A stretch of 64,000 nucleotides of DNA from a virus. Made by a program: the position numbers and the translations under genes. Below, piece by piece: positions 18,114-40,173 of this stretch (positions within the stretch are counted from its first letter, which is position 1; the number at the start of each line of letters is the position of its first letter). Below the pieces are notes generated by a model. The model saw only the letters and a list, made by a program, of their open reading frames with translations. It did not search any database and had not been told where the DNA came from. The stretch covers positions 8,896 through 72,895 of IMG/VR virus record IMGVR_UViG_3300027833_000035. One strand, written 5' to 3'.

Positions 18114-18139
18114 TATTAGTATATTATGATTGGAACACA

Positions 18140-23651: not shown

Positions 23652-24629
23652 ATGGTGTTCCATATAACTTAGTACACCTTTATCAATACATGTCATTAAA
23701 TTTTTACAATTGGCACAGTTATCAGATTTACTTGAATAAGCCAACTGTGACATGAACTTATTGTCTTTTACCTGAGTCCACGACTCAATATCATTTTCAT
23801 CCTTGACTACAAAATTATCTGTACCAATTAAAGCTATATCATATACGAATGGTGTCCAAAAGAAACGTTCGTTACAATAAGTATAATTTAATTCTAAAGA
23901 ACCACCTTGCGCTTGGTCAATAAATGTTTTAGGCATAAGATCGTCAGCAAAGTCATAGTTCTTCCATTTTTCAATAAGATGTTTTTGAACTTTAGATTTT
24001 GGCGCTCGGAAAAACGATGGATTTAAAGTAAGAATAGAATCAAACTGTTCTTCAACGAGTTTTGACATTTCGAGTACCTTATGGTTCTCAACATCATCAT
24101 TACCCATATTATATACCATATAATAATTTAAATCATCTGTCAACCCGTTTAATATATCTAATTTATATTTAAGTACATTCCAATTAACAGGTGGCTGCAA
24201 CGCTATATTACAATCATACATAAATCCATCAGCTTTTGGAATACTATTTAATAACTCAATAACATTATAATCAATCTTTTCCAATGTTGTAACGAATTGA
24301 ATAGTAGTTACTTTACTTAAACACTCTCGGAATGTTTCATCTTTTAATAACTCTGTAATATTATTATTACCAAATAAATCAGTTGGACCAATATTAATGG
24401 TTGACACGCGGTACCCATTGGTATTAAATAAATCAATGGCATTATTTAATCTATCAAACGATCCCATATTTGAACCGAGTTTATTAACAAAACAACCTTT
24501 GCATTTAAACTCGCAGCCAGATAATACCTCACAATTAAACTGTACTTTGATTTCATGTCCTTCATTAAAGGATAAATCAAAATCCTTATCGGCTTGAGCA
24601 GCACGTTTATTATTAGTAACTATTCCCAT
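23601..24629 (-). CDS. Divergent radical SAM protein, GPTD paralogue group (rSAM-9)
   Basis: EVLSGCEFKCKGCF, IGPTDLF; CANCKNLMTC...C. Start MGIVT assumed. Confidence 0.82.
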   Translation of the reverse strand: MGIVTNNKRAAQADKDFDLSFNEGHEIKVQFNCEVLSGCEFKCKGCFVNKLGSNMGSFDRLNNAIDLFNTNGYRVSTINIGPTDLFGNNNITELLKDETFRECLSKVTTIQFVTTLEKIDYNVIELLNSIPKADGFMYDCNIALQPPVNWNVLKYKLDILNGLTDDLNYYMVYNMGNDDVENHKVLEMSKLVEEQFDSILTLNPSFFRAPKSKVQKHLIEKWKNYDFADDLMPKTFIDQAQGGSLELNYTYCNERFFWTPFVYDIALIGTDNFVVKDENDIESWTQVKDNKFMSQLAYSSKSDNCANCKNLMTCIDKGVLSYMEHHSLTACVFPGVITTDKG

Positions 24630-25767
24630 GGTAAACCTCATCATCATATAAACCAATTACATCTTTATTTAAAATACATTCTTTTCTTCCATCAAATACG
24701 GTATCCATAATCATTGGAACCATTCTATTCACGCATATATTTAAATACTTACAATCGCCGCATTCTTTGCTTCCACTATTTTCAATCTGTTTAACAACGA
24801 TTTCGTCTTTCTTTTTTAGAATATAATCAGTTATATCCGCGTCAGGCAGCATCAACCAACCATTATCAACTTTAAAATCATCTGTATGGATCTGAGCATT
24901 CTCATATATGAATGGAGACAAATACATATCACCGTGGTATATACTGACTACCGAATAATGAAATGCTTTATGTGATACATCACCTTGTAAGAAATGGAAT
25001 TTGTTTTTAAACTTATGTGGATCTGCAGCCAACCGAGTTAGCATATCGTTCCATTCAAATAGTTTATTTCCATGTTTTGCACTATGATTAAAAGAACGTA
25101 CTACTGATGGCAATACTTCAATAACAGTTTCATACCTACTCCTAACAAACTCAATGGCAGGGAATAGTATATCCTCTACACCTTGTACGATATTAGTAGC
25201 CATACTTATTTCAAAGTTTAAAGAACTATTCTTAAACGTTTCAACTCTTTCGTCGAGTGCATCTAAGTATACTTGATCGTTCATTAATCTATTTAAATCC
25301 AAAGCGATTTGTACATCCCATGCTTCAACGACCTTACCCAGCGGTGAGTTTTCAATAGATTTTATCTTACCCTCAATATCCTTTTCAGATAATGATCCAA
25401 GTATAGAACAGTTATGTTGGATATTTCTATTATCCTCAGGCATCATTAATATAGCATCAGCAAGCCTTTGATTATTAATAATCTCTTCTAAATTTTGAGC
25501 ACCATAAAAGTCAGTAGGTCCGATTACAATATCGTCCAATACAACATCAGTTCTATCTTTTAATTCATACGCCAAGGAATGAAACGTTGCGATTGAGTTT
25601 GGGTTCCAATTACCTTTACGTTTAACAAAACAACCCGGACACATATATGAACAGCCTTCAAGTATTTCAAGGTTGACTTGTATTTTATATTCTTTCATAT
25701 TGTCGATTGAAGTAAATTCCTCACCACGTCCACCGTCTACAATATTTTTCCAATCATTATTTAACAT
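24613..25767 (-). CDS. Divergent radical SAM protein, GPTD paralogue group (rSAM-8)
   Basis: EILEGCSYMCPGCF, IGPTDFY, YLSPFIYE; CGDCKYLNIC...C. Confidence 0.85.
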   Translation of the reverse strand: MLNNDWKNIVDGGRGEEFTSIDNMKEYKIQVNLEILEGCSYMCPGCFVKRKGNWNPNSIATFHSLAYELKDRTDVVLDDIVIGPTDFYGAQNLEEIINNQRLADAILMMPEDNRNIQHNCSILGSLSEKDIEGKIKSIENSPLGKVVEAWDVQIALDLNRLMNDQVYLDALDERVETFKNSSLNFEISMATNIVQGVEDILFPAIEFVRSRYETVIEVLPSVVRSFNHSAKHGNKLFEWNDMLTRLAADPHKFKNKFHFLQGDVSHKAFHYSVVSIYHGDMYLSPFIYENAQIHTDDFKVDNGWLMLPDADITDYILKKKDEIVVKQIENSGSKECGDCKYLNICVNRMVPMIMDTVFDGRKECILNKDVIGLYDDEVYHGNSY

Positions 25768-26914
25768 ATGATATATCCTTTAAACGTTTTAGTTCTGGGT
25801 CGTCGTCATCAGTAACCAAAAACTTTTTACGATAACCATTCTTATCGTTTTCAACTGAATAGCCATCCCATTCATACATTGTTTGAGCAGGACCATTATA
25901 GTTGTTTATATTATTTAGCATATTCTCTTTAGGAGCAATGCAGCGATCTACTCCGAGGTAATCCCTTAACATTATTATTTTTCTATTATAACAACTAAAG
26001 AACAACGGACAATCCTCACACTCAGTTCCTTTTGCTCTTTCAATTTGATGTTCAACCATTGGAACAACGTCATTAAAAGATTTTACTTTAAACATATCAT
26101 CGTATATAGCCATGTTCTCATACATGAATGGACTTAAATACCATTCACCACGTTTATAGTTTAACACAGTGTAATTAATACCTGCATGAGAATGGTCTAC
26201 CATAATATTGTTTAGCTTTGACTCTTGGTGCCATGTGCTAAAGTATTCATTAAACTCATCGAGTGTCTTTAAGATTATGTTTGCTTTATGAGAACGAGAT
26301 ACTGACGGAATAAAATCCAATATAGTATCAAAACGTTTTACTGCTTGATCGTGTAATGCTTCATAATCTAATCCATAATCTTTAATATTAACAACAAACG
26401 TATAAGTAACCTCATGCATAATATGTTTATCTATATAAGCTAACATATCTGATATATGTTTCGTGTATTCATCAGTAAAGAATTTATGTGGATTTGTAGC
26501 GATACCAATTTCTATTTCAGTATCGAGGTTAATGTTATCCATAAGAAAATTACAGAACTTTTTAATATCACCATCAATAAGAGTTGACACAAAAGCTAGG
26601 ATAGGAGAGTTTTCATTAATAATATCTACGAGTTCTGGCATTACTTCATAGAAATTTTCTGATGCCAAAAAGTCTGTTGGACCGATTAATATTTCATCAA
26701 CAAGTATTCCTTGGTCAGTAATCGAACGTATAAACTCTTTTGCCATAAATATTTGGCTTTTATCGCTAGCGTTCCCCCGTCTATGTACAAAGCACCCAGG
26801 GCACTTGTGGTGACAACCGTCTAGTATATCCATTTGAATTTTGACGGCACTGACGGGCTTAGTTTGGGTCTCTGTGGTCATCTCATAATAGAGATTATTT
26901 TTAATCAGAGGCAT
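25757..26914 (-). CDS. Divergent radical SAM protein, GPTD paralogue group (rSAM-7)
   Basis: DILDGCHHKCPGCF, IGPTDFL, YLSPFMYE; CEDCPLFFSC...C. Confidence 0.85.
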   Translation of the reverse strand: MPLIKNNLYYEMTTETQTKPVSAVKIQMDILDGCHHKCPGCFVHRRGNASDKSQIFMAKEFIRSITDQGILVDEILIGPTDFLASENFYEVMPELVDIINENSPILAFVSTLIDGDIKKFCNFLMDNINLDTEIEIGIATNPHKFFTDEYTKHISDMLAYIDKHIMHEVTYTFVVNIKDYGLDYEALHDQAVKRFDTILDFIPSVSRSHKANIILKTLDEFNEYFSTWHQESKLNNIMVDHSHAGINYTVLNYKRGEWYLSPFMYENMAIYDDMFKVKSFNDVVPMVEHQIERAKGTECEDCPLFFSCYNRKIIMLRDYLGVDRCIAPKENMLNNINNYNGPAQTMYEWDGYSVENDKNGYRKKFLVTDDDDPELKRLKDISYVK

Positions 26915-27923
26915 ACATATATTCCTTCAATGCGACGCAGTTATCTAATCCTCGCGACTCCATATATAAATGTATATTACGTTCAGCACAGCTCATCATA
27001 TATTTGCAGCCATTACAATCATCAACCTGTTGAGCATATTCAATATTATCATATAAAGTATTTGCATCCATCGTTGTTTCAAAATTTGGAGTTCTTTGAA
27101 TAATAACATCATATAAGAATGGATTTAAATATAGTTTATTATTATAAAAGCTATAGTTTTGGCAGCCATATCCATTAAACTTTGCATCAAAGAATGTATA
27201 AAGATTAAGCCATTTTTTATCAATGTTTTGCTCAACCATTTCGCGTCTAAAGTTTGCTAGGTGCTGTTCCACCTTACCGCGTGCATTCCTATCTGTTAGA
27301 AACGACGGCGTAATTATAACTGGTGCATTATAATCATCAAATATTCGTTGACATAAATCATTATAGCCGATACGTTTAAATACATCTTTATGGTAATTAA
27401 CTCTAAATTGAACTGAACCTAATTCAAACATTTTGAGTTTACGGTTCCAATCGTCTAGTTCTCCATCAAGGTACTTATCTATATCTAAAACGATTTTAAA
27501 ATCAATATCAGGTACTCTGTGAATGCCTTCGTATAAACTCCAAATCTTATCGAGCTTATCCTTTATTTCAGCATATGGTTGAAGTAACGTTGATGTAAAT
27601 CCAACTGCCGATATTTCATAAAGCTTTTTCATATATGGATGGTTCATAATCTCGTAGAAGTTCTCTGCGTCAAAAATGTCAGTAGGACCAACCGTTATTT
27701 CGTCAGGATAATAAGAACCATTAATTAAAAGATTATAAAGCGTTTCTAAATTATCAGCCTTAGTAAGGTTCTTACGTGGAATAAAACAACCTGGGCACGA
27801 CTGAGCGCAGCCATGTAATATGTCTAAGTTTATTTCAGTACGTAAAAAGTCTGTATTAATAGGGCTTTTATTTTCATCATACGTATAGTAACCTGCGTAT
27901 GTTTTATTCAGTTTCACTGTCAT
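26901..27923 (-). CDS. Divergent radical SAM protein, GPTD paralogue group (rSAM-6)
   Basis: DILHGCAQSCPGCF, VGPTDIF, YLNPFLYD; CNGCKYMMSC...C. Start MTVKL assumed. Confidence 0.85.
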   Translation of the reverse strand: MTVKLNKTYAGYYTYDENKSPINTDFLRTEINLDILHGCAQSCPGCFIPRKNLTKADNLETLYNLLINGSYYPDEITVGPTDIFDAENFYEIMNHPYMKKLYEISAVGFTSTLLQPYAEIKDKLDKIWSLYEGIHRVPDIDFKIVLDIDKYLDGELDDWNRKLKMFELGSVQFRVNYHKDVFKRIGYNDLCQRIFDDYNAPVIITPSFLTDRNARGKVEQHLANFRREMVEQNIDKKWLNLYTFFDAKFNGYGCQNYSFYNNKLYLNPFLYDVIIQRTPNFETTMDANTLYDNIEYAQQVDDCNGCKYMMSCAERNIHLYMESRGLDNCVALKEYMYASD

Positions 27924-28740
27924 TAGTATTGGCCTCGGCTTCCGATTGAATATCAGCTTTAATGTCAGCCTCGATTTCCTCTTCAGTTTTTGGTTTTGGA
28001 ATATCAACACTAATAATAAATCCAGGAGGCATCATTGATAAAATGTTATTTGTAATATTAGCTTGTGTCAATACATAAAACAAATCTTTACCAAAGTATG
28101 CTGGCTTATCGTTATACATTTGTTTATTATATTGCATTTTAAATCCAAGCATAGAACAAACTAATAGGAAACCATCCCAACCGTCAGTAAGGAGACGCGC
28201 AACGTTTGGACCACACACTGTTGGTTTATCAACTACTGTAATTTGGTCAACTGCGTCTTTTACTTCAATTTCAATTGCTTTGTTTTCATCTGATAAATTT
28301 TCGTGGAATTTACAGATTACGAATGGAATAAGTTCAGCCATGTTATTACAAACTTCATCAATCAAATCAATATGTTTATCAACAAAATCGTGTAACTGAT
28401 CTTTACTAAATATGTCAAGTAATTGCTGTTCTAAACCATTAAACTCATATCTATATCTAGCTTTAATAGCCATCACAACAAACCGTGATAGGAAAGGGCT
28501 ATCAATAATAAAGTCTGATTTAATATATTCCAACAACAAGTCTTCATCGACTTGAGCAAAAGTTGTTTTAAAGTTAGTGTTTGCTAAATAAATTAGAATA
28601 TGTTTAGCTGACAGCTTTTCTTTAGATGCCAAATAATCTACCCATAAAACAAAATCTTCATCTTCTTCTTTTACCTTATAGATCTCAACTAAATTCTGAG
28701 GTGCTAATGGTAAAGTATATATATTTTTTTCTTCACTCAT
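27904..28740 (-). CDS. Hypothetical protein within the rSAM operon
   Basis: 278-aa helical-looking ORF with an acidic tail, overlapping the downstream rSAM gene. Confidence 0.75.
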   Translation of the reverse strand: MSEEKNIYTLPLAPQNLVEIYKVKEEDEDFVLWVDYLASKEKLSAKHILIYLANTNFKTTFAQVDEDLLLEYIKSDFIIDSPFLSRFVVMAIKARYRYEFNGLEQQLLDIFSKDQLHDFVDKHIDLIDEVCNNMAELIPFVICKFHENLSDENKAIEIEVKDAVDQITVVDKPTVCGPNVARLLTDGWDGFLLVCSMLGFKMQYNKQMYNDKPAYFGKDLFYVLTQANITNNILSMMPPGFIISVDIPKPKTEEEIEADIKADIQSEAEANTNDSETE

Positions 28741-28755: not shown

Positions 28756-29859
28756 TTATATCAATGGGTATTTATGAATTAAATATGGTATTCTGTTTTG
28801 GCGTTTTGAAAAGAACTGAACATCTGTATTGATTAACGCTAAGTCTTCTCTAATATTATCTGTGTTAAAGTTTCTTTCTAAAACCTTTTTAACGATAGGG
28901 AACACATTATTGATTTCAGTATATAGATCCATGTATTCCCAACCATCCGCTGTAGTATCAGCTTTGTTTTGGTGAACCGCAATAAAATCAGCATCGTCTT
29001 TAACTTTATTCCATAACTCTTCTAATAAGTAAAACGCAAGTGTGTAGTTAGATTTATTAGCAGCATTTACATATACATCTTTAAAGAATTGTTTTTTGTC
29101 TGTAGCCCAATCATTCGCGTCAGTTGCATTGGCATTCATATAATCAATGACTGACATAATGTATGCTGAATAGTGACGACGTGAAGTAAAGTGTTCCATA
29201 ACATCTCTTGCCATAACTGGTGAATGGATAGTAAACTTCTCAACGATTAATTCTGAAATCGGTGTACATGGATAAAAATCATTTAAGAAGAACAATAAGT
29301 CATAACTAAAGTTTTTACCATTTTGATATGTAATTACCCAAGGTGTTTCGCCTTCAGCATTTAATAAAGTATTCGTGTGGTTTCTAACATCGTTATAAAC
29401 TGTTGAGTCACTCATTAATGATAATACTAAATCTTGGTTAATCACTGCTTCCATATAATGGGCAGTCATAGAATTAATTGTTGTTGCATCGGCATCAGGG
29501 TAGAAACCAGAGGCTGTTAATAATCCAGCGGTATATTTAGCAAATACTTTAATCATATCCTCTTCGTCTGTAAACATAAGGATACGTTTATCACTGTTTT
29601 GAATATAGTCAGCATTAGCAACGTCTTCCCATTGCTCAAAATCCAATAGTGAAGCAGCATTAGAACGTGCGTTATTTGCCAACAATTCGTATTCAGCAGG
29701 CTGAAGGAATGCATCTTCAATATCAGGATGAACGATTGTAATTCTTCTTGGCTCAGCAGTATGATAAAAAGAATTTAATTCACCAATTACTGTTTCAACG
29801 TTTTGCGTATTTGTAATATACTTTTTATTATTTAAGTAATATAAACTCTGTCCAATCAT
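28756..29859 (-). CDS. Hypothetical protein within the rSAM operon
   Basis: About 367 aa; start MIGQSL overlaps the upstream stop (ATGA). No motif recognised. Confidence 0.75.
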   Translation of the reverse strand: MIGQSLYYLNNKKYITNTQNVETVIGELNSFYHTAEPRRITIVHPDIEDAFLQPAEYELLANNARSNAASLLDFEQWEDVANADYIQNSDKRILMFTDEEDMIKVFAKYTAGLLTASGFYPDADATTINSMTAHYMEAVINQDLVLSLMSDSTVYNDVRNHTNTLLNAEGETPWVITYQNGKNFSYDLLFFLNDFYPCTPISELIVEKFTIHSPVMARDVMEHFTSRRHYSAYIMSVIDYMNANATDANDWATDKKQFFKDVYVNAANKSNYTLAFYLLEELWNKVKDDADFIAVHQNKADTTADGWEYMDLYTEINNVFPIVKKVLERNFNTDNIREDLALINTDVQFFSKRQNRIPYLIHKYPLI

Positions 29860-31031
29860 AATTTTGCTCCTAATTTTTCTATTGCGTCGTCGTTCCAAGT
29901 GAAATCGTATGGATTATATTCAGCAAGAACATCTTTGTTCAATACACAGCCATTAACATTTAATGATTCTTGGGCTTCAAAGATCAGTCTACTTGCGCAG
30001 GCAACTGCGAATTTACAGTCAGCACAGTCTTTTACTTTACTCGACTTATTTATACCTTTTGTTACTAATTCATTTTTACGATCTAATATTTCTTCGAATG
30101 TTAAACCAGTAACATCTAAATTTTTATTACCTAAGAAAAACGCTTGTTCATGTAGCATTACATTTAGGTGTGTGGTTGGACCATTTTCTCCTGGAACAAT
30201 TGTAAGTCCAACAAAGTTAATTGAGTTACAATAAAGATTAGCCATTGACATAACAGTTTCTTGTGCGTTATCTTTATCAATAACTCTACCAAGGAAATCG
30301 TTCCATCCAAACAAATTCTTTCTTTGAACCAATTGTGAGTTTGCCCTAGAAAAAGCAGGGTTCATTTCTACGATTGTTTCATATTCATTTACAGATTTTT
30401 GGATAATCTTATTGTATGTTTCTTTATCAATCTTTTTGCCAACAACGTTAGAAGCCTGAAGTGTCCACGACCAATCCATTTGTTTTGGCGTATTGTTTTT
30501 AAAGAACTCTACCTTTTCCATAACGTTATCAAAGTATTCATCATCATTTAACATCTGCTCTACTCTGCCGATTGGCATAATAAATTCGATAATCATTTCG
30601 CGGCGATACTTATCTTCATCGTCAAGTACAGCAAAGATTTCTTTTACTTTATCCATAGTTGCTAAATCAAATTTAGCAGGTGCCGCGATACGAGCTCCGG
30701 TATGTTCTCTCATAATCTCTTGGACTACTGAGTTATTTAATACTGACTCTGTATTCTTGGCAGTGAAAAAGTCTGTTGGTCCAATAACGAATTCTCTTAG
30801 GTTAAGGCCAGTTCTTTTTACACCATCGGCAAGTTCTTTTGCTCTATCAATAATTTGTTGGTTCATAGCAGGGTCAATGTTTTTATCAACGAAACAACCT
30901 AGGCAGCCGTGATTACATCCAGCCAAAACTTCCATTTGAATTAAAACATCAAACTTAGTAGCATCCGAAGGTGTTAGACTTTCTGGTCCTGAGTACCTCA
31001 TTTGCTTACAATATGATTTTTGCATTGACAT
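29856..31031 (-). CDS. Divergent radical SAM protein, GPTD paralogue group (rSAM-5), adjacent to the putative substrates
   Basis: EVLAGCNHGCLGCF, IGPTDFF; CADCKFAVAC...C. Start MSMQKSY lies 1 nt after the stop of 31033-31413. Confidence 0.85.
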   Translation of the reverse strand: MSMQKSYCKQMRYSGPESLTPSDATKFDVLIQMEVLAGCNHGCLGCFVDKNIDPAMNQQIIDRAKELADGVKRTGLNLREFVIGPTDFFTAKNTESVLNNSVVQEIMREHTGARIAAPAKFDLATMDKVKEIFAVLDDEDKYRREMIIEFIMPIGRVEQMLNDDEYFDNVMEKVEFFKNNTPKQMDWSWTLQASNVVGKKIDKETYNKIIQKSVNEYETIVEMNPAFSRANSQLVQRKNLFGWNDFLGRVIDKDNAQETVMSMANLYCNSINFVGLTIVPGENGPTTHLNVMLHEQAFFLGNKNLDVTGLTFEEILDRKNELVTKGINKSSKVKDCADCKFAVACASRLIFEAQESLNVNGCVLNKDVLAEYNPYDFTWNDDAIEKLGAKL

Positions 31032-31032
31032 G

Positions 31033-31413
31033 TTATCTTCTTCCTCTCGAACTGTGACAACTACTATGGCAGCTGGCATGACAGTAATAAGCATTGATTG
31101 TTCGGTTACTCATTCTGCCTTCTATTAAGTCGACTGTTCTTCTAGTTAAATCTTCTAATGTATCAACAATATCTTGTGCGTAAATTATCTGACCTGAATT
31201 AATGCCACCATCTACATAGTTATTATATACATAATAGTTTGCATTCACAAATTCAAATCTATGATAATGCCATTGGCCTGTGGTATAACTTGTAACACCT
31301 GTACCATTAACATATGCGTTAACATAAATTCCAACATTTCTATCAAACGTTCTTAATTGTTGTCCACCATACGTCATTACATACGAATTAACGTCACCTC
31401 TATCCATAGTCAT
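31033..31413 (-). CDS. Putative rSAM substrate/precursor B (126 aa, C-terminal YYCHASCHSSCHSSRGRR)
   Basis: Paralogue of the upstream gene; TAATG overlap with it; Tyr-rich with a CHxS repeat tail. Confidence 0.8.
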   Translation of the reverse strand: MTMDRGDVNSYVMTYGGQQLRTFDRNVGIYVNAYVNGTGVTSYTTGQWHYHRFEFVNANYYVYNNYVDGGINSGQIIYAQDIVDTLEDLTRRTVDLIEGRMSNRTINAYYCHASCHSSCHSSRGRR

Positions 31414-31793
31414 TAGCGGCGACCTCGCGAGCTATGACACGATGAGTGACAACTTGAATGGCAGTAATATGCGTTAATAGTTCTATTTGATAATCTTCCT
31501 TCAACCAAATCAACAGTCCTCCGTACGACGTTACGAATTGAATCAATAACATTACCTGAACGAATAATTCCGCCGGTGTATATACCACTAGACATATACC
31601 CATTATAATAAGAATATGAAGCGTTTACAAACTCGAACCGTGTATAATGCCATTGGCCTGTGGTATAACTGTATCGTCCACCGTTTGCATATACATAAGC
31701 ATTAATATAAAACCCAACGGTCTTATCAAAGGTTCGTAATTGTCGACCACATTGAGTCTGTAAACTACTATTTAACTGTGCATAACTTGGCAT
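31413..31793 (-). CDS. Putative rSAM substrate/precursor A (126 aa, C-terminal YYCHSSCHSSCHSSRGRR)
   Basis: Starts 1 nt after the tail-fibre stop codon; three tandem CHSS units. Confidence 0.8.
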   Translation of the reverse strand: MPSYAQLNSSLQTQCGRQLRTFDKTVGFYINAYVYANGGRYSYTTGQWHYTRFEFVNASYSYYNGYMSSGIYTGGIIRSGNVIDSIRNVVRRTVDLVEGRLSNRTINAYYCHSSCHSSCHSSRGRR

Positions 31794-31794: not shown

Positions 31795-34700
31795 CTATAC
31801 TTTAACCTCTACTTCACCATTTTCACTATCACTTATCGCGATACCAATTATTTCATAGCTATTTATACCCGGAGTACCATAGTCAACTCCCTTAGCTTTA
31901 CCATCACCAGCAGGGATTACCCATTGGCCTTTCTTAACATCTTCACTTACTAAACATGGGATCCGACCTTTAAGAGCAATGAACGGATTCATTAATGCTT
32001 TTGTAGAAGTAGATCCAGGCTCAATTCCCATGTCGTTCATTTGAACAGCAGGGTTTGTTGATATGACACCAGCAAGAGGCATGCCCGGTTCCCATTTAGT
32101 AACTTCTGAGTCACCTTCAATGTTAATACCCATAACAGTAGCATTTTCATATACAGCATCTGCAGAATATCTCTCTGCAAGGTCAGCCCATCTTGCTGAC
32201 GTAGCTGTACCAACATATAAACCACCATTATCAATATACGATCTATCAGAACCATTTTGTCTAAACTGACAAATACGGTTTGAGTTACCACCAGAAGTAA
32301 TATAGAAACGGTTTGAGTGGTATTCAATTTTACCAACATCGTTTCCTGGGTTACCTGTCCAAGATTCGTTACCAGATTCTTCAAATCTAATACATGGTGA
32401 ATAACCATCTTGGTGTCGTGTTCTTAACTGCCATTGACCCGCAGCATTCAAATCGCCTGACCATGTTCTGTCACCATACATCCAACGACACATTGTACCG
32501 TTATATGTTGCTCTAAGTTGTAGAGACATAGACGAAGAGTTATTGTTACCAGTGATAGCATAATACTGACCTTGGTAAGAATAAGCGTGTACACCGGTTT
32601 GCTGGTTGTAAATACCCTCACGTTGACCGTCGTTACGGAACCAATTACGAGCATATATTTCATTGGCACGAACATAATCATTGAAGTTAGAACCTGATGA
32701 TGGATTACAATAATAACCAGTATTATCTCTGTCGTAGAAGATTGGCGCACGGAATGAGGATGATGCATAAGAGTTGCCATCACACATTGCTTGGAAGTAC
32801 CAACCTGAAATACTATCAGTAGCATTACCGTGCATCCCAACATAGAAACCTGTTGACCCTGTAGTGTTATTATTATTTGAGTCAAGGTTAAAGAATATGT
32901 CGTGGTATGAGTTAAATCGTAAATCGTCTGATACACCTCCACCACTGTCTCTGGAAGATATAGAGTGATAAGTACTGTCGTTACCATAGAATGTAATAAA
33001 GTCACCACGATCTCTTGCGTTTAACTGATCCCATTCAATCGTACTCATTTGCGAAGTAGATGCTGGGTTTGTATAACGATTTGTATCGTTTGAGTCGTAG
33101 AAGATTGGAGCTCTTAATGAACTACCAGCTTGTAATGAGTTATTTACATAAACGTCGTTAGCACCAAGTGGATCAGAACCGTTATTGATTGACATGACCT
33201 GAGTATTCATTGTATAGTCATCGTAGAAACGCATACCATTATAACTAGCATTTGCACCCATCTTAATACCAGTGTGGAAAGCAATTCTTAGATCCGGGTA
33301 TGGGTAAGTCCAACCACCACCTTCACGATAGATAGCGTAAGCAGTTGATTCATTACTTCCAAAGTACAAACCAAATTGGTCATTTTGTGAAACATCATCT
33401 TTGTGTACAAATCTATTTGCTCTAATGTCGCCAGCAAAATTGTTATCACCGGCTGGATTTAAAAAGTATGCAGAGTTGTTACGATCGTAATAAGTATTGG
33501 CATATATATCACCATATACTTCAGTTGTACCACTTCGAGTTCTTAGTGCCCAGCTACCAGATTGATTAAGGAAACCAATATCATTTGAGTTGTTTGCATA
33601 TACATAGCCTCGAATAGTACTTCCATTATCATCTCTAAATCGTATACCATTAGCAGAGCCACCGCCTGCAACGTTCCAATAGTCATCGTTGTCTGAATAG
33701 AAATGCTGACCTGTTGCAGTGTTATATAAACCACGACCATTTGTATCGTTACGGAACCAACCATCGTTATAAACTTCTGAACGAATATCAAGTGTATGCA
33801 TTACTGATGTTGAAGCAAAGTCACCGTAATAACCTGTACTGTCACGGTCATAATATCGTCCAGAGTAAGTTCCACCTGTTACGAATATGTTACCATCACC
33901 ACGAACAAGAAGATTTGTTGTACCTGATAAGCCGCCATCTCTAAACGCAATGTCTTCACCGCCTGATGTAGCAATAATTAAGTGAGCATCATTAGTATCA
34001 GTAGCTTGGATATAACCACGAACATTGCCAGCATTTGTAATAAACTGAGCTTCACCACCGTCAGCAAACTGAATAACATCTACTTTTGATGTACTTGATG
34101 GATCGACGTAGAAAGATGTATCGTCTGAGTCAACTAATCTACTTGCATAGAAGTATGAACTTGTACCGCCGCCTGGGTTTGCGTTATAGATAGCAATATC
34201 AGAATAAGAAGAATAGGCTGTACCTGAGTTCCATGACTGTTGCCATAGACGCATACCACGACCAGACTTTTTAAACATCAATAAGTTATCTGAACCGCCA
34301 GAAGAGTCTGTGTAAGATCTTAAGTGTAAGTAATCGGCATATGGTGCAGTGTTATTATTGTTCCAAGATGTGAAACCAAACGTTAATCGACCTGCAGTAT
34401 CTTCGTTAGGTTCAATAATACGGTTATCTTTGCGTAATAATGATCCTGCATAACCATTAACATTACCTTGGATTACGTTATCAACTTGTAATGTTAATAG
34501 TCTCGAAGTACCATTACCGTCAATTTTGTATGCAGTATTGTCACTGTCATACCAAATTGGTGAACGTAACTGATTAACACCTAGGAAGAAACCATCTTTA
34601 GTAGACGCTTGTTCTTCACCATTATAATAAAGTTCAACATCGCCATTTTGACGGAAGATTTGTGCCCATTCGTCGTTAGTATCATTAAAGATACCAGCAA

Positions 34701-37700
34701 CGCCAGCTCCACTTGACATGAATACCCAGTCATCGTTAATAGCATAACCTGCATAACCACCTTTATTACCAGTTACACTGATTGAGCCATATGTACCAGT
34801 AGTTGCATCTAATTGATATGTTGCTCCACCAAACTGAACAGCGTTTGCACGAAGAATATTTGTAAGAGATGTTGAGGCTGGATCTAAGTAATAAGCGTTA
34901 TCGTCTGAGTCATAGAACCTGCTTGCATAAGAACCGTTAAGCGCTGTATGCGTACCCGATACAACAACATTACGAGACATTGCCCAGTCACCGTTAGCAT
35001 CAGTCCAGTTACTATCTGTAACAAATCTTAGTCTGTCTGGGTTAGTACCCTCTGCCATTCTAAGCATTTGAGTTCCACCAGCAACCAACTGCATATCGTC
35101 AGCACCAATAAATCTGATATATGTATCAGTATCGCCATTATGTCTAATATATTCGTTAGCACGTATTTCGTTAAATACAGATGTTGAAGCCGGATCAGCA
35201 TAGTAAGCTGAGTTGTTAGAGTCATAGAACCGTTGAGCATATGAATAACGTCCAGCCCAAACATCACCGTCAGACTCGACACGTAAACGATATACACCAT
35301 TACCAGCACCAGTTGTGAATTGTAAATTACCGCCTACGTTAGTTGCGAAGTCATTTGGTGACTCATAAATTTGCCATAGGTTTCCGCCGTTCCATGCTAG
35401 ACCTTCAGATGGTCCTGGATCGTTGAATGTTAATTTGTTTACGTTATTAATATTACCGTTTGTCCAATCCCAGTTACCTCCGACTTTAGATGGACCTTTT
35501 GGTTCAATGTAATAGTTAGTGTCGTTAAGGTCTCTAAACCTACCAGCATCAATAATATTTGCTGAGATGTTATCTGCAGAAATATCACCAGTAACAGTAA
35601 GATCGTTACCGATTGTGGCATCGTTAACAATAGTTAATCCTGCAGCTTTTAAGCTTGATTGAGCATCAGTTCTTTTTAGAATTGGTGGACCAAACTCACG
35701 TGTTGCACCATTTGGAGCATAATTCATTAATGAGATTAATCTAACAAAACGAACGCCTTCACCATCTGAACCATTATATGGTGTGTGAGTTGTTGGTACA
35801 ACGTGTTCACCTGAATATTGAGTCCAGCCTGTGGCGGTATGATTGATAGCAGATGCCGCAAAGTATGAAATACCATCATTAGTAGCAATTGGATTTTTGT
35901 TTTTATCGTATCGTCTAACACCTAAGTAGAATAAACCGCCAGTACCACTAATGCGTCGAACAGCTTGTTCTGCGTAAATTGTTTCGCCAGGTTCTACAGG
36001 AATAAAATCAGAGTCAAAGCTTCTATAACCATTTGATCTTAATGCGTAACTTGATGCGAATGGACCGTCACCGTTTAAAACATATTCACCGGTACTAGTT
36101 GTTGCATTATTTTCAACACCCTGCATTGGTTGAATAACACGTTTATCCCAGTAGTCTGAAGCATCAAACATTTTGAGATCAGCAAGGCCGGCGCCATATG
36201 ATTTAAGTAATCCAAGGTTCTCATTACCACCGTTAAGAGCAAGAGATCCAAATATACCAGCGCCATAAGCTTGTATATCACCATTTTCTGAGAACCAAAA
36301 ACGTTCACCAATATTATTAAACGAAATACCCATCGCAGAACGAGAGTTTCTTGTTTTATGGAATATAGATGGGAAGTTAGCATCAGCAGCTGTATTTTGT
36401 AAAACAATTAAACGTTGTTGAGTAGACTTAACCTCTAATGGATAAGTTGTATTATTAAAGATTGCGCTATCACCAGCTTTAACTGATTTAAGTCTGGATT
36501 GACCAGCAAGATCGGCATAGAATGCAGAGTTATCTAAATCATAGAATATTGGAGAACGCATACTGTTTGGAGCAGAACCATAACCATTTTCAGCACCAAT
36601 TTGATGAATGTTATTAGAATATAATCTTGTGAAGTTATTTCTGTTAGCAACCAATGACCATTCGTTATCTGTTTCGTTATACAGACCCATCTCTGTAGCA
36701 CCACTGGATATAAAGCCCCAGTCATTACTAATCATATAACCTGCATAGCCATCTCTTTCGCCTTCAACCATGATAGTCCCTTTAGGACCTGATGGTGAGT
36801 CGATAGTTAGGGAACTGCCGTCCATTTGGATTTGATTTGTTCGAACAACATTTAAAATAGATGTTGAAGCAGGATCTAAATAATAAGCATTATTGCCTGA
36901 GTCATAATAACGTGGAGCATAAACATCAAGGTTAAAATCAGCAGAGTTATCATCAATGTTTAATCTCTCTGTATTATTGATAAACAATTTATAAATGCCA
37001 GCTGCAGAGAAACCAAAGTATGTATCTGCATCACCGTTATGTCTAATGTAATCGTCAATGTCAATTCTATTCATTACTGATGTACCAGCAAAGTCACCAT
37101 AGTATGCGTTATTATTATAATCGTAATAAGTAGGGAAGTATGCCATGTCATTGGCATCAGCAGCTGATATGCCGCCATTGAAATTCACTCTCTTATTGAA
37201 TAAGAATAAAGCTCTATCAGTATCAAATTGTGCTGAACCAGCAACCTTAGATCCAATATCTAAATAACCAGTTGGTGTTGTGAACCTATGAGCATTACTT
37301 GTATTTGGTTCAAACTTAAAAGTTCCACCAGCATCAGAGAATATTGGGGATCGCATATCTGTAGCAGCTTCTGCATATGTTGTATATACATCAAGCTGCG
37401 CGGTTCCGCCGGCAGTAAATATAATTTGGTCAGCGCCAAATCCAATTTTAGTATTAGTATCACCGTCGTGTATAATTTCACCGACGAGACTTATGTTATT
37501 CATTCGCGATGTACTAGCAAAGTCACCGTAATATAAAACATCATTTGCATCTAGGTACTGAGCGAATGAAGCATTACCTGTTGACGTAAGTGTTTTATTA
37601 TTTCTAACTCTAAGATTGTTGGCATCGTTCATGTAGAAACCGCCGCCTTGACCAAAGCCAAGTTCATCCATTCTTAGGAATGTAGCAGTTCCATTACCAA

Positions 37701-40173
37701 CAACATATGCATCATCAGTACCATTAAGTTGTAATGATCCATCTATGTGAAGTTTACTATCTGTTTTTGTACCACTATTTAATAACGGAGTATTATCGTG
37801 TTGAGTATATGCAACTGAGTCATTACCAATTGTAATATCCCCAGTACTTAACATTGCTAATCTTGTTGATGCACCACTATCGTAGAAGTAAACTCCTTGG
37901 TCTGCATCAGATACAAAGTACGCATTCTTTGAACTATCACCTCTAATAGAGAACGCCGCTGCGCCATCTGCTAAGAATTCTGACCAATATCCATTTTTAC
38001 CTGAGAATGGATTACCACCCATATCAATTCTGTTAAGTGATAATAGTGATAGTCCACCAGTATTACCAGCAATTGAAATTGTAGGGTTAGTAGTCGCACC
38101 TAATCCAGCATATGGCGCGATCATAATTCCGCCAGTACCTGAGTTATTATCTACAAGGTTAAAGTCTGTACCTGCGCCAACATTAATACGTCCACCAACT
38201 CTAAGCGAGTCAGCAGCACCAGTTTGACCAAGATCCAAGAAGTTTGTTGTTCCTGATGTATCATAATATACTGGTGCTTTCATATTGTCAACGGCTGTTA
38301 CGCCAGTATCTCTTACGAATAATCTATCACTACCACCAGTTCTAACTTTAAACTCGTTTGCGGAAGAGAATGTAATTAATGTATCAGCATCACCTTGGTG
38401 AATAATGTCACCTTGTAAACTGATGTTGTTCATTACTGATGTACCAGCAAAGTCGCCGTAATATGAGTTATTATCAGAGTCAACAAACTGTGGTGCAAGA
38501 ACATTATATGTAAATGTCGCGTTTGTAGCATTAAGAGTTAATCGTGCAACCCCATTTGTTGTAAATGTCTGTACATCTGTACCAAAAGAAATTTTATTAT
38601 TAGTATCACCATTATGGAATAAGTCGTCATTAATACCAAGGCTATTAAATACTGATGAACCAGCTGGATCGGCATAAAAGTTATTATCGCTTGAGTCAAG
38701 GAACCTTGGTGCGATTAAATCAACTGATGATGTAACTGCTGTATCAGTGATTGATAATCTAACTGAGCCACCCGTTGCTAAATCAATTTGATTAGTACCA
38801 AATGATAACTTAGTATCGGTATCACCGTTATGGAAAAGATCGCTATCAATTCCAATTGTATTCATTACTGATGTACCAGCAAAGTCACCAAGATACGCAT
38901 TATTGCCACTATCTAAATAACGAGGAGCTTTTACATCAACTAACGCTTCAACTGCAGTGTTATTAATTAATAGCCTTTGCCCTGCACCAGTATATACTTC
39001 GAATTGATTAGCAGCTGGGAAATTAATATACGTATCAGCATCGCCATCGTGTGATATAGTTCCAACAAGTTCAATATTATTTAACCTTGATGTATCGGAC
39101 GGCCAAGACAAATATGTATTATCATCAGAGTCTAAAAATTTATCAGCAATAAGATTACGGCCAACAGTCCAATCACCATTTAAATCTGAATATGTTTGAT
39201 AAGCAAAGACTCCATCAAGGAAACCAATTTTACCGTTATCAGAAGAAAGAACTCTATTGTTACCCGCACCGCGCATAGTAAGTAGGGCCGAACCAGTTCC
39301 GTTACCGATAGCAACCGTTCCTTCAAACTCTAAATTACCCGTAGCAATGTCATTAACATCTGAGCGAATAAACTGTGAAGCTTCTAATCCGTCAACGGTA
39401 TCAGCATCAAAGTTATTACCAGAACCTTCGTCGTCTGTTGTAATAATACGACCAATGTCTGTACCATTTGATATTAGTTTAAACCAATCGTCTGTCTCGT
39501 CCCATTGTAAAGATGATGTTGCTAAACCTCCACGAAGAACTTCCCAACCAGCGTTTTCTGTTGGTGTACCAGTAGTAAAGTTTGAATTGAGTGTAATAAT
39601 ATTATCAGCAATTAAAACCGTTTCTGATTGAACCTCGACGCGTGTACCTTGTACTGTAAGGTTACCAGTGATAATATAATCACCGTCCATCGTATCATTT
39701 TGATCCGACCTTACAAAACTTCCACTATCAATTCCATCAAGTAAATCGGCATCTAAACCAGATCCTGTGCCGTCGTTTCCAGCGTACCAAATATCTTCGC
39801 CATTAACTGTTGGAGCACGTTTAAAATCAATACCAGTTGACGTAAATGCTAAATCAATAGAACCACTATATGTAACAGCAATTCCATCAGTACCATTATT
39901 AAATGTAATACCGTTATTGCCATTGTCTATTGAATAATCATTTGGTGTTGGATTTGAAACATTTAAACTGTTTGCGTTACCAATAAAGCTGGTAATTACT
40001 GAACCATTGCCGCCATCGTTTGTTATTGTAACTGGTATACCTGAAGAATTACTAAAATCAGCTGTTCCTGATACTTGTAATTTATTTGTGCCGTCGTCGG
40101 ATGTTGTGCCGATTAGAACGTTATTCTCAGATTGAAGTCCGTTCTTTACTATGAATTTCTTATCATTTGCCAT
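31795..40173 (-). CDS. Long tail fibre/adhesin with repeated modules and a C-terminal autocleaving chaperone-like domain
   Basis: GSGLDADLLDG fibre motif; about 19 copies of an AP.FYDS.N..YY.DPASTS module; C-terminal SARWADLAERY...GVISTNP...IALKGRIPC resembles the peptidase G2/phi29 gp12-type domain. Start MANDKK with SD. Confidence 0.85.
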   Translation of the reverse strand: MANDKKFIVKNGLQSENNVLIGTTSDDGTNKLQVSGTADFSNSSGIPVTITNDGGNGSVITSFIGNANSLNVSNPTPNDYSIDNGNNGITFNNGTDGIAVTYSGSIDLAFTSTGIDFKRAPTVNGEDIWYAGNDGTGSGLDADLLDGIDSGSFVRSDQNDTMDGDYIITGNLTVQGTRVEVQSETVLIADNIITLNSNFTTGTPTENAGWEVLRGGLATSSLQWDETDDWFKLISNGTDIGRIITTDDEGSGNNFDADTVDGLEASQFIRSDVNDIATGNLEFEGTVAIGNGTGSALLTMRGAGNNRVLSSDNGKIGFLDGVFAYQTYSDLNGDWTVGRNLIADKFLDSDDNTYLSWPSDTSRLNNIELVGTISHDGDADTYINFPAANQFEVYTGAGQRLLINNTAVEALVDVKAPRYLDSGNNAYLGDFAGTSVMNTIGIDSDLFHNGDTDTKLSFGTNQIDLATGGSVRLSITDTAVTSSVDLIAPRFLDSSDNNFYADPAGSSVFNSLGINDDLFHNGDTNNKISFGTDVQTFTTNGVARLTLNATNATFTYNVLAPQFVDSDNNSYYGDFAGTSVMNNISLQGDIIHQGDADTLITFSSANEFKVRTGGSDRLFVRDTGVTAVDNMKAPVYYDTSGTTNFLDLGQTGAADSLRVGGRINVGAGTDFNLVDNNSGTGGIMIAPYAGLGATTNPTISIAGNTGGLSLLSLNRIDMGGNPFSGKNGYWSEFLADGAAAFSIRGDSSKNAYFVSDADQGVYFYDSGASTRLAMLSTGDITIGNDSVAYTQHDNTPLLNSGTKTDSKLHIDGSLQLNGTDDAYVVGNGTATFLRMDELGFGQGGGFYMNDANNLRVRNNKTLTSTGNASFAQYLDANDVLYYGDFASTSRMNNISLVGEIIHDGDTNTKIGFGADQIIFTAGGTAQLDVYTTYAEAATDMRSPIFSDAGGTFKFEPNTSNAHRFTTPTGYLDIGSKVAGSAQFDTDRALFLFNKRVNFNGGISAADANDMAYFPTYYDYNNNAYYGDFAGTSVMNRIDIDDYIRHNGDADTYFGFSAAGIYKLFINNTERLNIDDNSADFNLDVYAPRYYDSGNNAYYLDPASTSILNVVRTNQIQMDGSSLTIDSPSGPKGTIMVEGERDGYAGYMISNDWGFISSGATEMGLYNETDNEWSLVANRNNFTRLYSNNIHQIGAENGYGSAPNSMRSPIFYDLDNSAFYADLAGQSRLKSVKAGDSAIFNNTTYPLEVKSTQQRLIVLQNTAADANFPSIFHKTRNSRSAMGISFNNIGERFWFSENGDIQAYGAGIFGSLALNGGNENLGLLKSYGAGLADLKMFDASDYWDKRVIQPMQGVENNATTSTGEYVLNGDGPFASSYALRSNGYRSFDSDFIPVEPGETIYAEQAVRRISGTGGLFYLGVRRYDKNKNPIATNDGISYFAASAINHTATGWTQYSGEHVVPTTHTPYNGSDGEGVRFVRLISLMNYAPNGATREFGPPILKRTDAQSSLKAAGLTIVNDATIGNDLTVTGDISADNISANIIDAGRFRDLNDTNYYIEPKGPSKVGGNWDWTNGNINNVNKLTFNDPGPSEGLAWNGGNLWQIYESPNDFATNVGGNLQFTTGAGNGVYRLRVESDGDVWAGRYSYAQRFYDSNNSAYYADPASTSVFNEIRANEYIRHNGDTDTYIRFIGADDMQLVAGGTQMLRMAEGTNPDRLRFVTDSNWTDANGDWAMSRNVVVSGTHTALNGSYASRFYDSDDNAYYLDPASTSLTNILRANAVQFGGATYQLDATTGTYGSISVTGNKGGYAGYAINDDWVFMSSGAGVAGIFNDTNDEWAQIFRQNGDVELYYNGEEQASTKDGFFLGVNQLRSPIWYDSDNTAYKIDGNGTSRLLTLQVDNVIQGNVNGYAGSLLRKDNRIIEPNEDTAGRLTFGFTSWNNNNTAPYADYLHLRSYTDSSGGSDNLLMFKKSGRGMRLWQQSWNSGTAYSSYSDIAIYNANPGGGTSSYFYASRLVDSDDTSFYVDPSSTSKVDVIQFADGGEAQFITNAGNVRGYIQATDTNDAHLIIATSGGEDIAFRDGGLSGTTNLLVRGDGNIFVTGGTYSGRYYDRDSTGYYGDFASTSVMHTLDIRSEVYNDGWFRNDTNGRGLYNTATGQHFYSDNDDYWNVAGGGSANGIRFRDDNGSTIRGYVYANNSNDIGFLNQSGSWALRTRSGTTEVYGDIYANTYYDRNNSAYFLNPAGDNNFAGDIRANRFVHKDDVSQNDQFGLYFGSNESTAYAIYREGGGWTYPYPDLRIAFHTGIKMGANASYNGMRFYDDYTMNTQVMSINNGSDPLGANDVYVNNSLQAGSSLRAPIFYDSNDTNRYTNPASTSQMSTIEWDQLNARDRGDFITFYGNDSTYHSISSRDSGGGVSDDLRFNSYHDIFFNLDSNNNNTTGSTGFYVGMHGNATDSISGWYFQAMCDGNSYASSSFRAPIFYDRDNTGYYCNPSSGSNFNDYVRANEIYARNWFRNDGQREGIYNQQTGVHAYSYQGQYYAITGNNNSSSMSLQLRATYNGTMCRWMYGDRTWSGDLNAAGQWQLRTRHQDGYSPCIRFEESGNESWTGNPGNDVGKIEYHSNRFYITSGGNSNRICQFRQNGSDRSYIDNGGLYVGTATSARWADLAERYSADAVYENATVMGINIEGDSEVTKWEPGMPLAGVISTNPAVQMNDMGIEPGSTSTKALMNPFIALKGRIPCLVSEDVKKGQWVIPAGDGKAKGVDYGTPGINSYEIIGIAISDSENGEVEVKV

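What the first reader, a model, noticed from the sequence alone, without database searches (positions are those of the whole stretch)
31033..31793. Tandem 126-aa paralogues with a near-invariant NRTINAYYCH(S/A)SCHSSCHSSRGRR C-terminus
Seen: identical length, divergent N-termini and middles, and conserved blocks QLRTFD, SYTTGQWHY.RFEFVNA, RRTVDL.EGR and the C-terminal tail. They have 14 and 13 Tyr. The tail gives Cys at i, i+4, i+8 and three His-x-Ser triplets, so it fits either thioether or His-Ser cyclophane chemistry. Inference: the tail is the modified core and RRTVDL.EGR..NRTINA a recognition element. An alternative is that the tail is a Cys/His metal or Fe-S binding site loaded by the island.
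Basis: partly seen in the sequence, partly recalled or inferred. Interest (0 to 1): 0.88.

Follow-up and report, generated by a model that had tools for sequence, protein, structure and literature searches.

The report
Cys-His-tailed phage proteins with radical-SAM partners
Two small sister genes behind a giant phage tail-fibre gene end in the same 16-residue Cys-His tail, which always sits among radical-SAM enzyme genes in phages and some predatory bacteria, so it is probably an undescribed chemically finished part of a fibre-linked protein.

Summary
Two 126-aa ORFs lie on the minus strand (31413-31793 and 31033-31413). They are 64% identical and both end in NRTINAYYCH(S/A)SCHSSCHSSRGRR. In their last 24 codons, 19 differ and 18 of those are synonymous.

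The tail (C-H-x-S)x3-R-G-R-R is invariant or nearly so in 121 homologues. It is the only conserved part of a much wider superfamily (845 representatives) whose N-terminal domains are otherwise unrelated. Members include Ralstonia phage RSL2 ORF068, Agrobacterium phage Atu_ph07 gp170 and chromosomal genes of Bdellovibrionota.

Of 68 loci with a called tail gene, 67 hold a CX3CX2C radical-SAM gene and 56 have one directly adjacent. Four radical-SAM/SPASM families, a cupin, a 132-aa protein and a ~250-aa protein travel with it. Fibre or S74-chaperone genes are frequent neighbours.

My best reading (confidence 0.55) is that this is a protein substrate whose Cys-His tail is modified by the co-encoded radical-SAM enzymes and that acts with fibres. 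A plain metal-binding tail is the main rival.

In the wider family Cys-His is more conserved than Ser. The proposed RRTVDL..NRTINA recognition element is specific to the 126-aa family.

It is not a member of the HXS, SCIFF or triceptide families. I found no paper that describes it. The scan found this family before on other DNA, with the same reading.

The parts
31413..31793 (-). Tail protein A, 126 aa. AF2 model: helix 4-19, beta-hairpin 23-34/43-54, helix 79-100, tail helix 113-120.
   Evidence: (mean pLDDT 86.2)
31416..31463 (-). A tail, residues 111-126: CHSSCHSSCHSSRGRR
31033..31413 (-). Tail protein B, 126 aa, paralogue of A (64% identity). A and B are separate orthologue groups, kept as a pair in 32 of 37 related viral loci.
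31036..31083 (-). B tail, residues 111-126: CHASCHSSCHSSRGRR
31795..40182 (-). 2795-aa tail-fibre-like protein directly upstream. A TATAAATA late-promoter-like box lies at 40212-40219.
   Evidence: (phrog_19602 tail fiber, E 1.6e-5)
29856..31094 (-). Radical-SAM paralogue directly downstream of B (CNHGCLGC). It probably starts at 31031, one base after B's stop, as in orthologues. It has a C-terminal CxxCx5C...C motif.
28756..29898 (-). 380-aa protein with no family match, evolving as fast as the fibre
27904..28740 (-). 278-aa protein. It is homologous to the ~250-aa gene that follows the tail gene in distant phages and bacteria. The fold is unmatched.
   Evidence: (hhalign 98.7%, E 2.6e-16)
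23601..28010 (-). Four further radical-SAM paralogues (26901-28010, 25757-26914, 24613-25767, 23601-24656). They share CX3CX2C, GPTD and a four-Cys C-terminal motif.
18555..22951 (+). Core set found with every tail gene: radical-SAM/SPASM 18555-19583, 19574-20614, 20592-21506 and 21827-22951, plus the 132-aa protein 21487-21885
18080..18604 (+). Cupin (weak JmjC-like match) that precedes the 18555-type radical SAM in most genomes
17471..18034 (-). 2OG-Fe(II) oxygenase at the edge of the island
   Evidence: PF13759, E 2.7e-13

Best explanation
A and B are folded carrier proteins. Their last 16 residues, (Cys-His-x-Ser)x3-Arg-Gly-Arg-Arg, are the substrate site of the radical-SAM/SPASM enzymes encoded around them.

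Shown:
- The tail is under strict protein-level selection.
- It is the only shared part of a large superfamily.
- It always travels with four conserved radical-SAM/SPASM families, a cupin, a 132-aa protein and a ~250-aa protein.

Inferred:
- One or more of these enzymes abstract hydrogen from the tail and install covalent changes centred on the Cys-His dyads. Candidates are thioether or His-linked crosslinks, or Cys oxidation of the anSME type. The oxygenases possibly add hydroxyl groups.
- The fast-evolving N-terminal domain gives partner or host specificity. The finished protein works with trimeric fibres, either as a fibre-tip or accessory component or as an assembly factor.
For: Tail conservation.
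- C111, H112, S114, C115, C119, S122 and RGRR are invariant, and H116, S118 and H120 are at least 90% conserved, in 121 sequences.
- Every invariant residue shows synonymous codon turnover.

Module character.
- In 22 carriers of 168-296 aa with mean column identity 21%, only M1 and the tail are invariant.
- 845 representatives match the profile at E<=1e-3.
- Cultured examples are RSL2 ORF068 and Atu_ph07 gp170.

Linkage.
- Of 68 loci with a called tail ORF, 67 hold a CX3CX2C ORF and 56 have one adjacent.
- The same four radical-SAM families recur in marine T4-like contigs, RSL2, Atu_ph07 and Bdellovibrionota chromosomes.

Enzyme type.
- The 18555 family has invariant CX3CX2C, GGEP and eight further Cys.
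- It aligns full-length to the DarE, DynA and anSME models (E 1.9e-14 to 2.2e-8) and to solved anSME 4k37 (E 1.8e-7).

Precedent.
- In the HXS system a protein with HxS repeats is matured by two radical-SAM enzymes (PMC13128918, sections 6, 9 and 10 read).

Fibre link.
- The genes are packed as fibre-A-B-rSAM.
- Median identities to the window are fibre 50%, A 53% and B 57%, against 69-85% for the radical SAMs.
- S74-chaperone proteins lie within about 5 kb of the module, and adjacent in G001, in 4 of 9 bacterial chromosomal loci inspected.
Against: - No modification is shown, and every link here is genomic.
- All radical-SAM matches are far below the curated cutoffs. The five minus-strand paralogues hit almost nothing, so peptide chemistry is not established. 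SPASM enzymes also act on non-peptide substrates.
- Cys and His are classical metal ligands, and Ser is replaceable in the wider family.
- An invariant core with a variable carrier is the reverse of most RiPP precursors.
- In RSL2, ORF057 and ORF065 are annotated as virion structural proteins, while the tail protein ORF068 is only 'hypothetical'. This gives no support for a virion location.
- In several loci the tail gene is not next to a fibre gene (L044-L047 and L049).
- Many of the 68 loci are near-duplicates, so the counts overstate independence.
Confidence: 0.55

Rival explanations
1. The tail is an unmodified metal or Fe-S binding site: three Cys and three His, possibly pooled across an oligomer. 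It could be structural, as His-metal sites are in T4 fibres. It could instead serve the many cluster-hungry radical-SAM enzymes as a carrier or electron partner.
For: - Cys-His dyads are the most conserved feature, while the fourth position varies (S, N, A, D) in 33 of the top 150 representatives.
- Small residues fill the other positions.
- Most structural proteins of the window (37 of 43 crudely called ORFs) hold 0-2 Cys, so the three tail Cys stand out.
- An Mrp/NUBPL Fe-S carrier gene lies near the module in one bacterial genome.
- T4 gp37 HxH iron sites are recalled, not tested here.
Against: - A carrier that serves conserved enzymes should not have a hypervariable body.
- The invariant R-x-R-R end and the near-invariant first and last Ser have no ligand role.
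- Metal-binding tails of known chaperones are usually variable in length and sequence (recalled).
- This reading does not explain why four different radical-SAM families are always present.
Confidence: 0.22
2. The tail is a docking peptide that plugs the carrier into a conserved partner, such as the ~250-aa protein or an enzyme. The radical SAMs act on something else, for example the fibre itself or a small molecule.
For: - The w27904-type protein follows the tail gene in distant genomes.
- 19574 also resembles the MoaA and NirJ models, which are not peptide enzymes.
- Giant fibres are obvious alternative substrates.
Against: - No other ORF in the window carries a repeated conserved motif.
- The w27904 family itself evolves fast (median 49% identity), which fits poorly with a partner for an invariant peptide.
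- Tail genes occur without adjacent fibres.
Confidence: 0.13
3. It is a phage-borne counterpart of the HXS defence effector: a basic His-x-Ser peptide, matured by radical SAMs, that blocks DNA entry of competing phages (superinfection exclusion).
For: - There are three HxS triplets and a basic RGRR end.
- HxsA needs radical-SAM maturation and binds DNA (PMC13128918, section 9).
Against: - No HxsA match at E<=10 in 7 tail proteins.
- The HxsB and HxsC matches reach 33.8 and 23.3 bits against cutoffs of 370 and 268.
- Pfam finds no peptidoglycan-binding domain.
- The genes are packed behind a late-promoter-like box with the fibre.
- Ser is not conserved in the wider family.
Confidence: 0.05

Closest known systems
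HXS antiphage system (HxsA matured by the radical-SAM enzymes HxsB and HxsC with HxsD; PMC13128918)
   Same: A folded protein, not a short peptide, carries tandem His-x-Ser units. It is encoded with more than one radical-SAM enzyme that it needs for maturation. The modification maps to an S-H-x-S-S stretch.
   Different: - The tail proteins match no HxsA model, and the enzymes are not HxsB or HxsC equivalogs.
- The repeats here are C-terminal, preceded by Cys, and number three (rarely two or four).
- Pfam finds no peptidoglycan-binding domain in A or B.
- There are four to nine radical SAMs.
- The system is phage- and predator-borne and fibre-linked.
RiPP radical-SAM/SPASM maturases and their Cys-rich precursors (SCIFF/ranthipeptides with CteB or PapB, sactipeptides, DarE/DynA)
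   Same: - The enzymes have CX3CX2C plus auxiliary-cluster Cys.
- The substrate has period-4 Cys spacing with small residues, like C-x3-C/D ranthipeptide cores (recalled).
- A and B give a weak hit to the CLI_3235 Cys-rich precursor model (E 0.027 and 0.082).
   Different: - Every match is far below cutoff.
- The carrier is a 110-280-aa folded domain.
- The core is invariant and the carrier variable.
- No RRE, protease or exporter was recognised.
Anaerobic sulfatase-maturating enzyme (anSME) acting on C/S-x-P/A-x-R in folded proteins
   Same: - anSME is the only solved relative aligned over the full length of the 18555 family (4k37, E 1.8e-7, full length), though two partial matches score better. 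Model matches are E 2.2e-8 and 1.9e-10.
- anSME acts on proteins.
- The last repeat C-H-x-S-R shares Cys, Ser+3 and Arg+4 with the sulfatase motif (motif recalled).
   Different: - There is no Pro or Ala at +2.
- There are three repeats rather than one site.
- No sulfatase is present.
- Scores are far below the 349-bit cutoff.
Phage fibre accessory proteins encoded after the distal fibre gene (T4 gp38-type adhesin or chaperone; recalled)
   Same: They are small genes directly downstream of the long fibre gene and evolve as fast as the fibre.
   Different: No sequence or fold similarity was found. gp38 has no radical-SAM partners or Cys-His tail.

Membership tests
HXS system | Effector belongs to the HxsA family (NCBIfam His-Xaa-Ser repeat protein) | tested here: not met
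   hmmscan against NCBIfam at E<=10 on 7 tail proteins (A, B, RSL2, Atu_ph07 and 3 loci) gave no HxsA row.
HXS system | Paired radical-SAM maturases HxsB and HxsC | tested here: not met
   18555 against HxsB scores 33.8 bits (cutoff 370), covering the N-terminal part only. 19574 against HxsC scores 23.3 bits (cutoff 267.9).
HXS system | Tandem His-x-Ser repeats essential in the effector | tested here: inconclusive
   Three HxS units are present in A and B. Ser is replaced by N, A or D in 33 of the top 150 superfamily representatives.
HXS system | Peptidoglycan-binding domain and export of the effector | tested here: not met
   Pfam finds no domain in A or B. Signal peptides were not tested.
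Radical-SAM/SPASM peptide maturases | CX3CX2C cluster motif and SAM-binding GGEP-like motif | tested here: met
   C19, C23, C26 and G63-G64-E65-P66 are invariant in 22 orthologues of 18555. CX3CX2C is present in all 9 island enzymes. Pfam Radical_SAM passes its cutoff only for 19574 (39.7 against 29.5 bits).
Radical-SAM/SPASM peptide maturases | SPASM or twitch auxiliary-cluster Cys | tested here: inconclusive
   The 18555 family has eight further invariant Cys. TIGR04085 SPASM scores 25.7 and 23.1 bits against a cutoff of 27. The minus-strand paralogues have CxxCx5C...C.
Radical-SAM/SPASM peptide maturases | Demonstrated peptide or protein substrate | not testable with these tools
   This needs enzymology and mass spectrometry.
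SCIFF / Cys-rich radical-SAM precursors | Match to a precursor model | tested here: not met
   TIGR04065 scores 14.7 and 13.1 bits against a cutoff of 26.
Triceptides (three-residue cyclophanes) | Aromatic-x-x motif with a dedicated cyclophane synthase equivalog | tested here: not met
   The H-x-S motif is present, but AmcB, YhhB, FxsB and GrrM matches score 16-28 bits against cutoffs of 310-445.
anSME / formylglycine | C/S-x-P/A-x-R motif and an anSME equivalog | tested here: not met
   The last repeat is C-H-x-S-R, without P or A. TIGR03942 scores 33.6 and 40.3 bits against a cutoff of 349.
Known fibre chaperone or adhesin folds | Structural similarity of the carrier domain | tested here: inconclusive
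   Best Foldseek E-values are 0.39 (PDB) and 0.04 (BFVD). Best VIA Z is 5.6 over 73 residues at rmsd 3.8.

The most novel reading that the evidence does not exclude
Phages and predatory bacteria share a dedicated radical-SAM pathway. It turns an invariant Cys-His peptide at the end of interchangeable carrier domains into a defined protein-derived structure, either a crosslinked staple or a metal-holding cofactor. That structure is needed on host- or prey-recognition fibres. This would be the first enzymatic radical chemistry known to finish a virion adhesion protein.
Probability: 0.3. Interest if true: 0.9.

Novelty: new variant of a known kind. Interest (0 to 1): 0.8.

Why it matters
Radical-SAM maturation is known for peptides and a few proteins, but not for phage fibre-linked proteins.

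This module is common. The profile search found 845 protein representatives, in marine T4-like phages, in cultured jumbo phages of Ralstonia, Burkholderia and Agrobacterium, and in the chromosomes of some Bdellovibrionota. Published papers list its radical-SAM and cupin genes only as 'accessory' genes.

An invariant 16-residue target on swappable carriers gives a clean handle for enzymology. If the product is a staple or a metal site on adhesins, it would also explain why marine phages carry up to a dozen radical-SAM genes together with Fe-S assembly genes. A paper noted that observation without explaining it (PMC5332604, passage seen).

Tried and rejected
I used the search for related loci instead.
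- blastn of 29800-32000 and tblastn of A and of the 194-aa L044 tail protein against the phage collection found nothing. Cultured examples came only through the 18555 radical SAM.
- Pfam and NCBIfam give no family for A or B. PHROGs gives only phrog_35144, of unknown function, E 2.8e-5 over the C-terminal half.
- Fold searches of the A model gave nothing convincing. The w27904 model (pLDDT 88.8) also has no match: best Foldseek E 0.15, best VIA Z 4.8. Weak rows to the radical-SAM structures ChlB (Z 4.7) and anSME (Z 4.3) are within noise.
- The protein atlas gave no usable hit for w28756 or w27904.
- Complex prediction with the 18555 radical SAM plus A, three 4Fe-4S clusters and SAM returned 'no answer' (score 0.00, controls not run). 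This is neither for nor against binding.
- hhalign of the w28756 family against the ~365-aa gene that follows the tail gene elsewhere gave 1.0% probability, so I did not treat them as one family.
- The TATAAATA count in the window (15) is not above shuffles (mean 9.9; 9 of 100 shuffles reach 15). The terminator scan is at chance level.
- Literature: seven searches found no paper on this tail or module. Phage papers only list the radical-SAM and cupin genes (passages seen in PMC5468394 and PMC11898562).
- Supplementary tables were closed. Virion proteomics of RSL2-like phages may bear on whether the tail protein is in particles.
- One search failed because it had too many words. I did not repeat it.

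Full report
**Observation.** The window is part of a 72.9-kb viral record estimated at 33% complete. On the minus strand, the ORF listing gives a 2795-aa ORF (31795..40182), then two 126-aa ORFs, A (31413..31793) and B (31033..31413), then a 412-aa ORF with a CNHGCLGC motif. A begins one base after the fibre stop. B's ATG overlaps A's TAA. A and B are 64% identical (79/123, E 1e-38). Of the last 24 codons, 19 differ between A and B and 18 of those changes are synonymous. The identity is therefore kept by selection on the peptide, not by gene conversion.

**Conservation of the tail.** A word-indexed search found 190 related proteins among 457 candidates. All came from marine metagenomes or viromes and none is named. 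In an alignment of 121 of them, L19, C111, H112, S114, C115, C119, S122 and R123-G124-R125-R126 are invariant. H116, S118 and H120 are at least 90% conserved. In 59 distinct tail-coding DNAs, each invariant residue uses several codons, with AGY/TCN switches for Ser and AGR/CGN for Arg.

**The tail is a module.**
- A scan of viral contigs returned 47 loci (98 pattern matches, 47 confirmed). Ten of them (L040-L049) matched chiefly or only through the C-terminal region, on proteins of 187-209 aa.
- PHROG 35144 (186 positions, unknown function) matches only the C-terminal half of A and B.
- Through the 18555 radical SAM I reached cultured jumbo phages (15 records). Ralstonia phage RSL2 ORF068 (186 aa) ends CHSSCHTSCHGSRGRR. 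Agrobacterium phage Atu_ph07 gp170 (296 aa) ends CHSSCHASCHNSRSRR. Each lies directly after the 18555-type enzyme and a cupin.
- In an alignment of 22 such carriers, mean column identity is 21% and only M1 and C-H-x-S-C-H-x-S-C-H-x-S-R-x-R-R are invariant.
- With the last 16 columns removed, the 126-aa family and these carriers show no profile similarity (hhalign probability 1.3%).
- A profile search of 1.84 billion representatives found 845 proteins at E<=1e-3, 595 at E<=1e-10 and 62 at E<=1e-30.
- Of the best 150, 103 end in (CHx[S/T])n-RxRR, mostly with three units (95), sometimes two (7) or four (1). Another 33 keep the C-H period but have N, A or D at the fourth position. The remaining 14 have other ends, some with an inserted residue before RxRR and some stopping at CHGS[I/L].
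- So Cys-His dyads at period four and the R-x-R-R end are the hard core. Ser is preferred but not obligatory.

**Linkage to radical-SAM enzymes.**
- The island 17471-31094 holds nine ORFs with CX3CX2C.
- The plus-strand four (18555, 19574, 20592, 21827) match Radical_SAM weakly in Pfam. Only 19574 passes the cutoff.
- 18555 and 19574 align full-length to the DarE, DynA and anSME models, far below cutoffs. They reach 25.7 and 23.1 bits on the SPASM domain model, whose cutoff is 27.
- In 22 orthologues of 18555, the cluster Cys, GGEP and eight further Cys are invariant.
- The solved relatives by sequence are ChlB (best E, 1.5e-8, partial match) and anSME (4k37, E 1.8e-7, the only full-length match), then CteB.
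- The five minus-strand paralogues are 19-26% identical to the first (w29856). They share CX3CX2C, GPTD and CxxCx5C...C.
- Across the 69 loci examined (L003-L049 and L052-L073), 68 had a called tail ORF. Of these, 67 had at least one CX3CX2C ORF and 56 had one adjacent. The exception has its tail ORF at a contig edge. Many of these loci are near-duplicates.
- The recurring set is: cupin, 18555-type radical SAM, tail protein, a ~250-aa protein, a 21827-type enzyme, 19574, 20592 and the 132-aa protein.
- The ~250-aa protein is homologous to w27904 (hhalign 98.7%, E 2.6e-16 over 204 columns).
- The A/B lineage has in addition the five minus-strand paralogues and keeps both copies in 32 of 37 loci. 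One further locus is cut at its edge, and four carry a single copy.

**Occurrence in bacteria.**
- A degenerate-pattern scan of one genome per species found 22 stretches. Many are in Bdellovibrionota MAGs and some are evidently phage contigs binned with marine bacteria.
- On a 1.29-Mb contig, the 11-kb module is flanked by serine dehydratase, acyl-CoA dehydrogenase, an Mrp/NUBPL ATPase, an SLT transglycosylase and a PBP. It is therefore chromosomal and not an obvious prophage.
- In a sample of 301 genomes of that phylum, 10 had a match. Four of those 10 were the genomes I started from.
- In 4 of 9 chromosomal loci inspected, proteins of 334-397 aa with a C-terminal Peptidase_S74 chaperone domain lie within about 5 kb of the module (adjacent in G001). 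In three of the four loci they also carry a prepilin-type N-terminal motif.
- S74-terminated trimeric fibres are known prey-recognition adhesins of Bdellovibrio (PMC10769870, passages seen).
- In the window, the 1566-aa protein 46682-51382 also ends in collagen repeats plus S74.

**Evolutionary rates.** Relative to the window, median identities over the non-duplicate rows of L003-L039 are: fibre 50%, A 53%, B 57%, w28756 56% and w27904 49%. The radical SAMs are at 69-85%. The carriers thus evolve like host-range proteins, while the enzymes and the tail are held fixed.

**Structure.** AF2 with 121 sequences gives a confident model of A (pLDDT 86.2). It has helix 4-19, a long hairpin, helix 79-100 and a less confident helical tail. 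No solved or predicted viral fold matches.

**Interpretation.** The simplest account of an invariant peptide on interchangeable carriers, always beside several conserved radical-SAM/SPASM enzymes, is that the peptide is their substrate. The nearest documented case is the HXS defence system, in which HxsA with His-x-Ser repeats is matured by HxsB and HxsC (PMC13128918). Membership fails on every testable criterion, so this is an analogue, not a member. Which chemistry occurs cannot be decided here. Options are thioether links from Cys, His-centred crosslinks, or anSME-like Cys oxidation (the last repeat C-H-x-S-R resembles the sulfatase motif, which I recall from memory). The conservation pattern points to Cys and His rather than Ser. 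A pure metal site is the main rival. A modified tail that also binds metal would reconcile both readings. The fibre association rests on gene order, shared evolutionary rate and the S74 neighbours in bacteria. It is weakened by loci without an adjacent fibre and by the lack of a virion annotation for RSL2 ORF068.

**Earlier scan notes.** Four follow-ups on other genomes reached the same reading and the same closest analogue. I saw them after my own analysis. Notes on this genome about operon packing and the oxygenases agree.

**Verdict.** This is a real, strongly selected and widespread family that I found undescribed in print. It is best read as a radical-SAM-modified, fibre-linked protein tail. 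Confidence is 0.55 for the substrate reading and lower for any specific chemistry.

Noticed in passing
window 31860-31867 (-): A second TATAAATA box lies inside the 3' end of the fibre gene, 67 nt upstream of A's ATG. It could be an internal late promoter for A, B and the enzymes. The overall count of the box is not above chance.
   Followed up: partly
window 29856-31094 (-): The listed start at 31094 overlaps B by 62 nt. Orthologues of 391-392 aa start right after the B-type gene, so the likely start is the internal Met at 31031, one base after B's stop.
   Followed up: partly
L075:4-1006, L078:8597-9640 and 10255-11262, L087:15135-16325, L090:6658-7692: Bdellovibrionota chromosomes carry, within about 5 kb of the tail/radical-SAM module, 334-397-aa proteins that combine a prepilin-type N-terminal methylation motif (4 of the 5) with a C-terminal Peptidase_S74 chaperone. 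This is an unusual pilin-fibre hybrid.
   Followed up: partly
window 46682-51382 (-): The C-terminal 400 residues of the 1566-aa protein hold collagen triple-helix repeats (E 4.3e-14) followed by a Peptidase_S74 domain (E 1.4e-14).
   Followed up: no
whole window: Structural proteins are Cys-poor, most with 0-2 Cys even at 500-1566 aa. The island enzymes hold 7-17 Cys and the 4014-aa protein holds 30.
   Followed up: no
L063:864-1430, L067:156-761; P0239, P0268, P0295, P0296, P0299: Variants of the tail exist. Two Bacteriovoracia MAGs have four CHxS units. Several representatives stop at CHGS[I/L] without RxRR, and these could be real variants or gene-call errors.
   Followed up: no
L075:15650-16801 (-): An Mrp/NUBPL-type Fe-S carrier ATPase (PF10609, E 1.9e-92) lies two to three genes (about 1.9 kb) from the module in the 1.29-Mb bacterial contig.
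   Followed up: no
window 27904-28740 (-): The confident AF2 model of the 278-aa partner has no clear fold match. Weak rows to radical-SAM structures (ChlB Z 4.7, anSME Z 4.3) raise the question of a degenerate cluster-less relative, but they are within noise.
   Followed up: partly
literature: A T4-like marine viral genome with 12 radical-SAM genes plus Fe-S assembly genes was reported without explanation (PMC5332604, passage seen). It probably carries this island.
   Followed up: no
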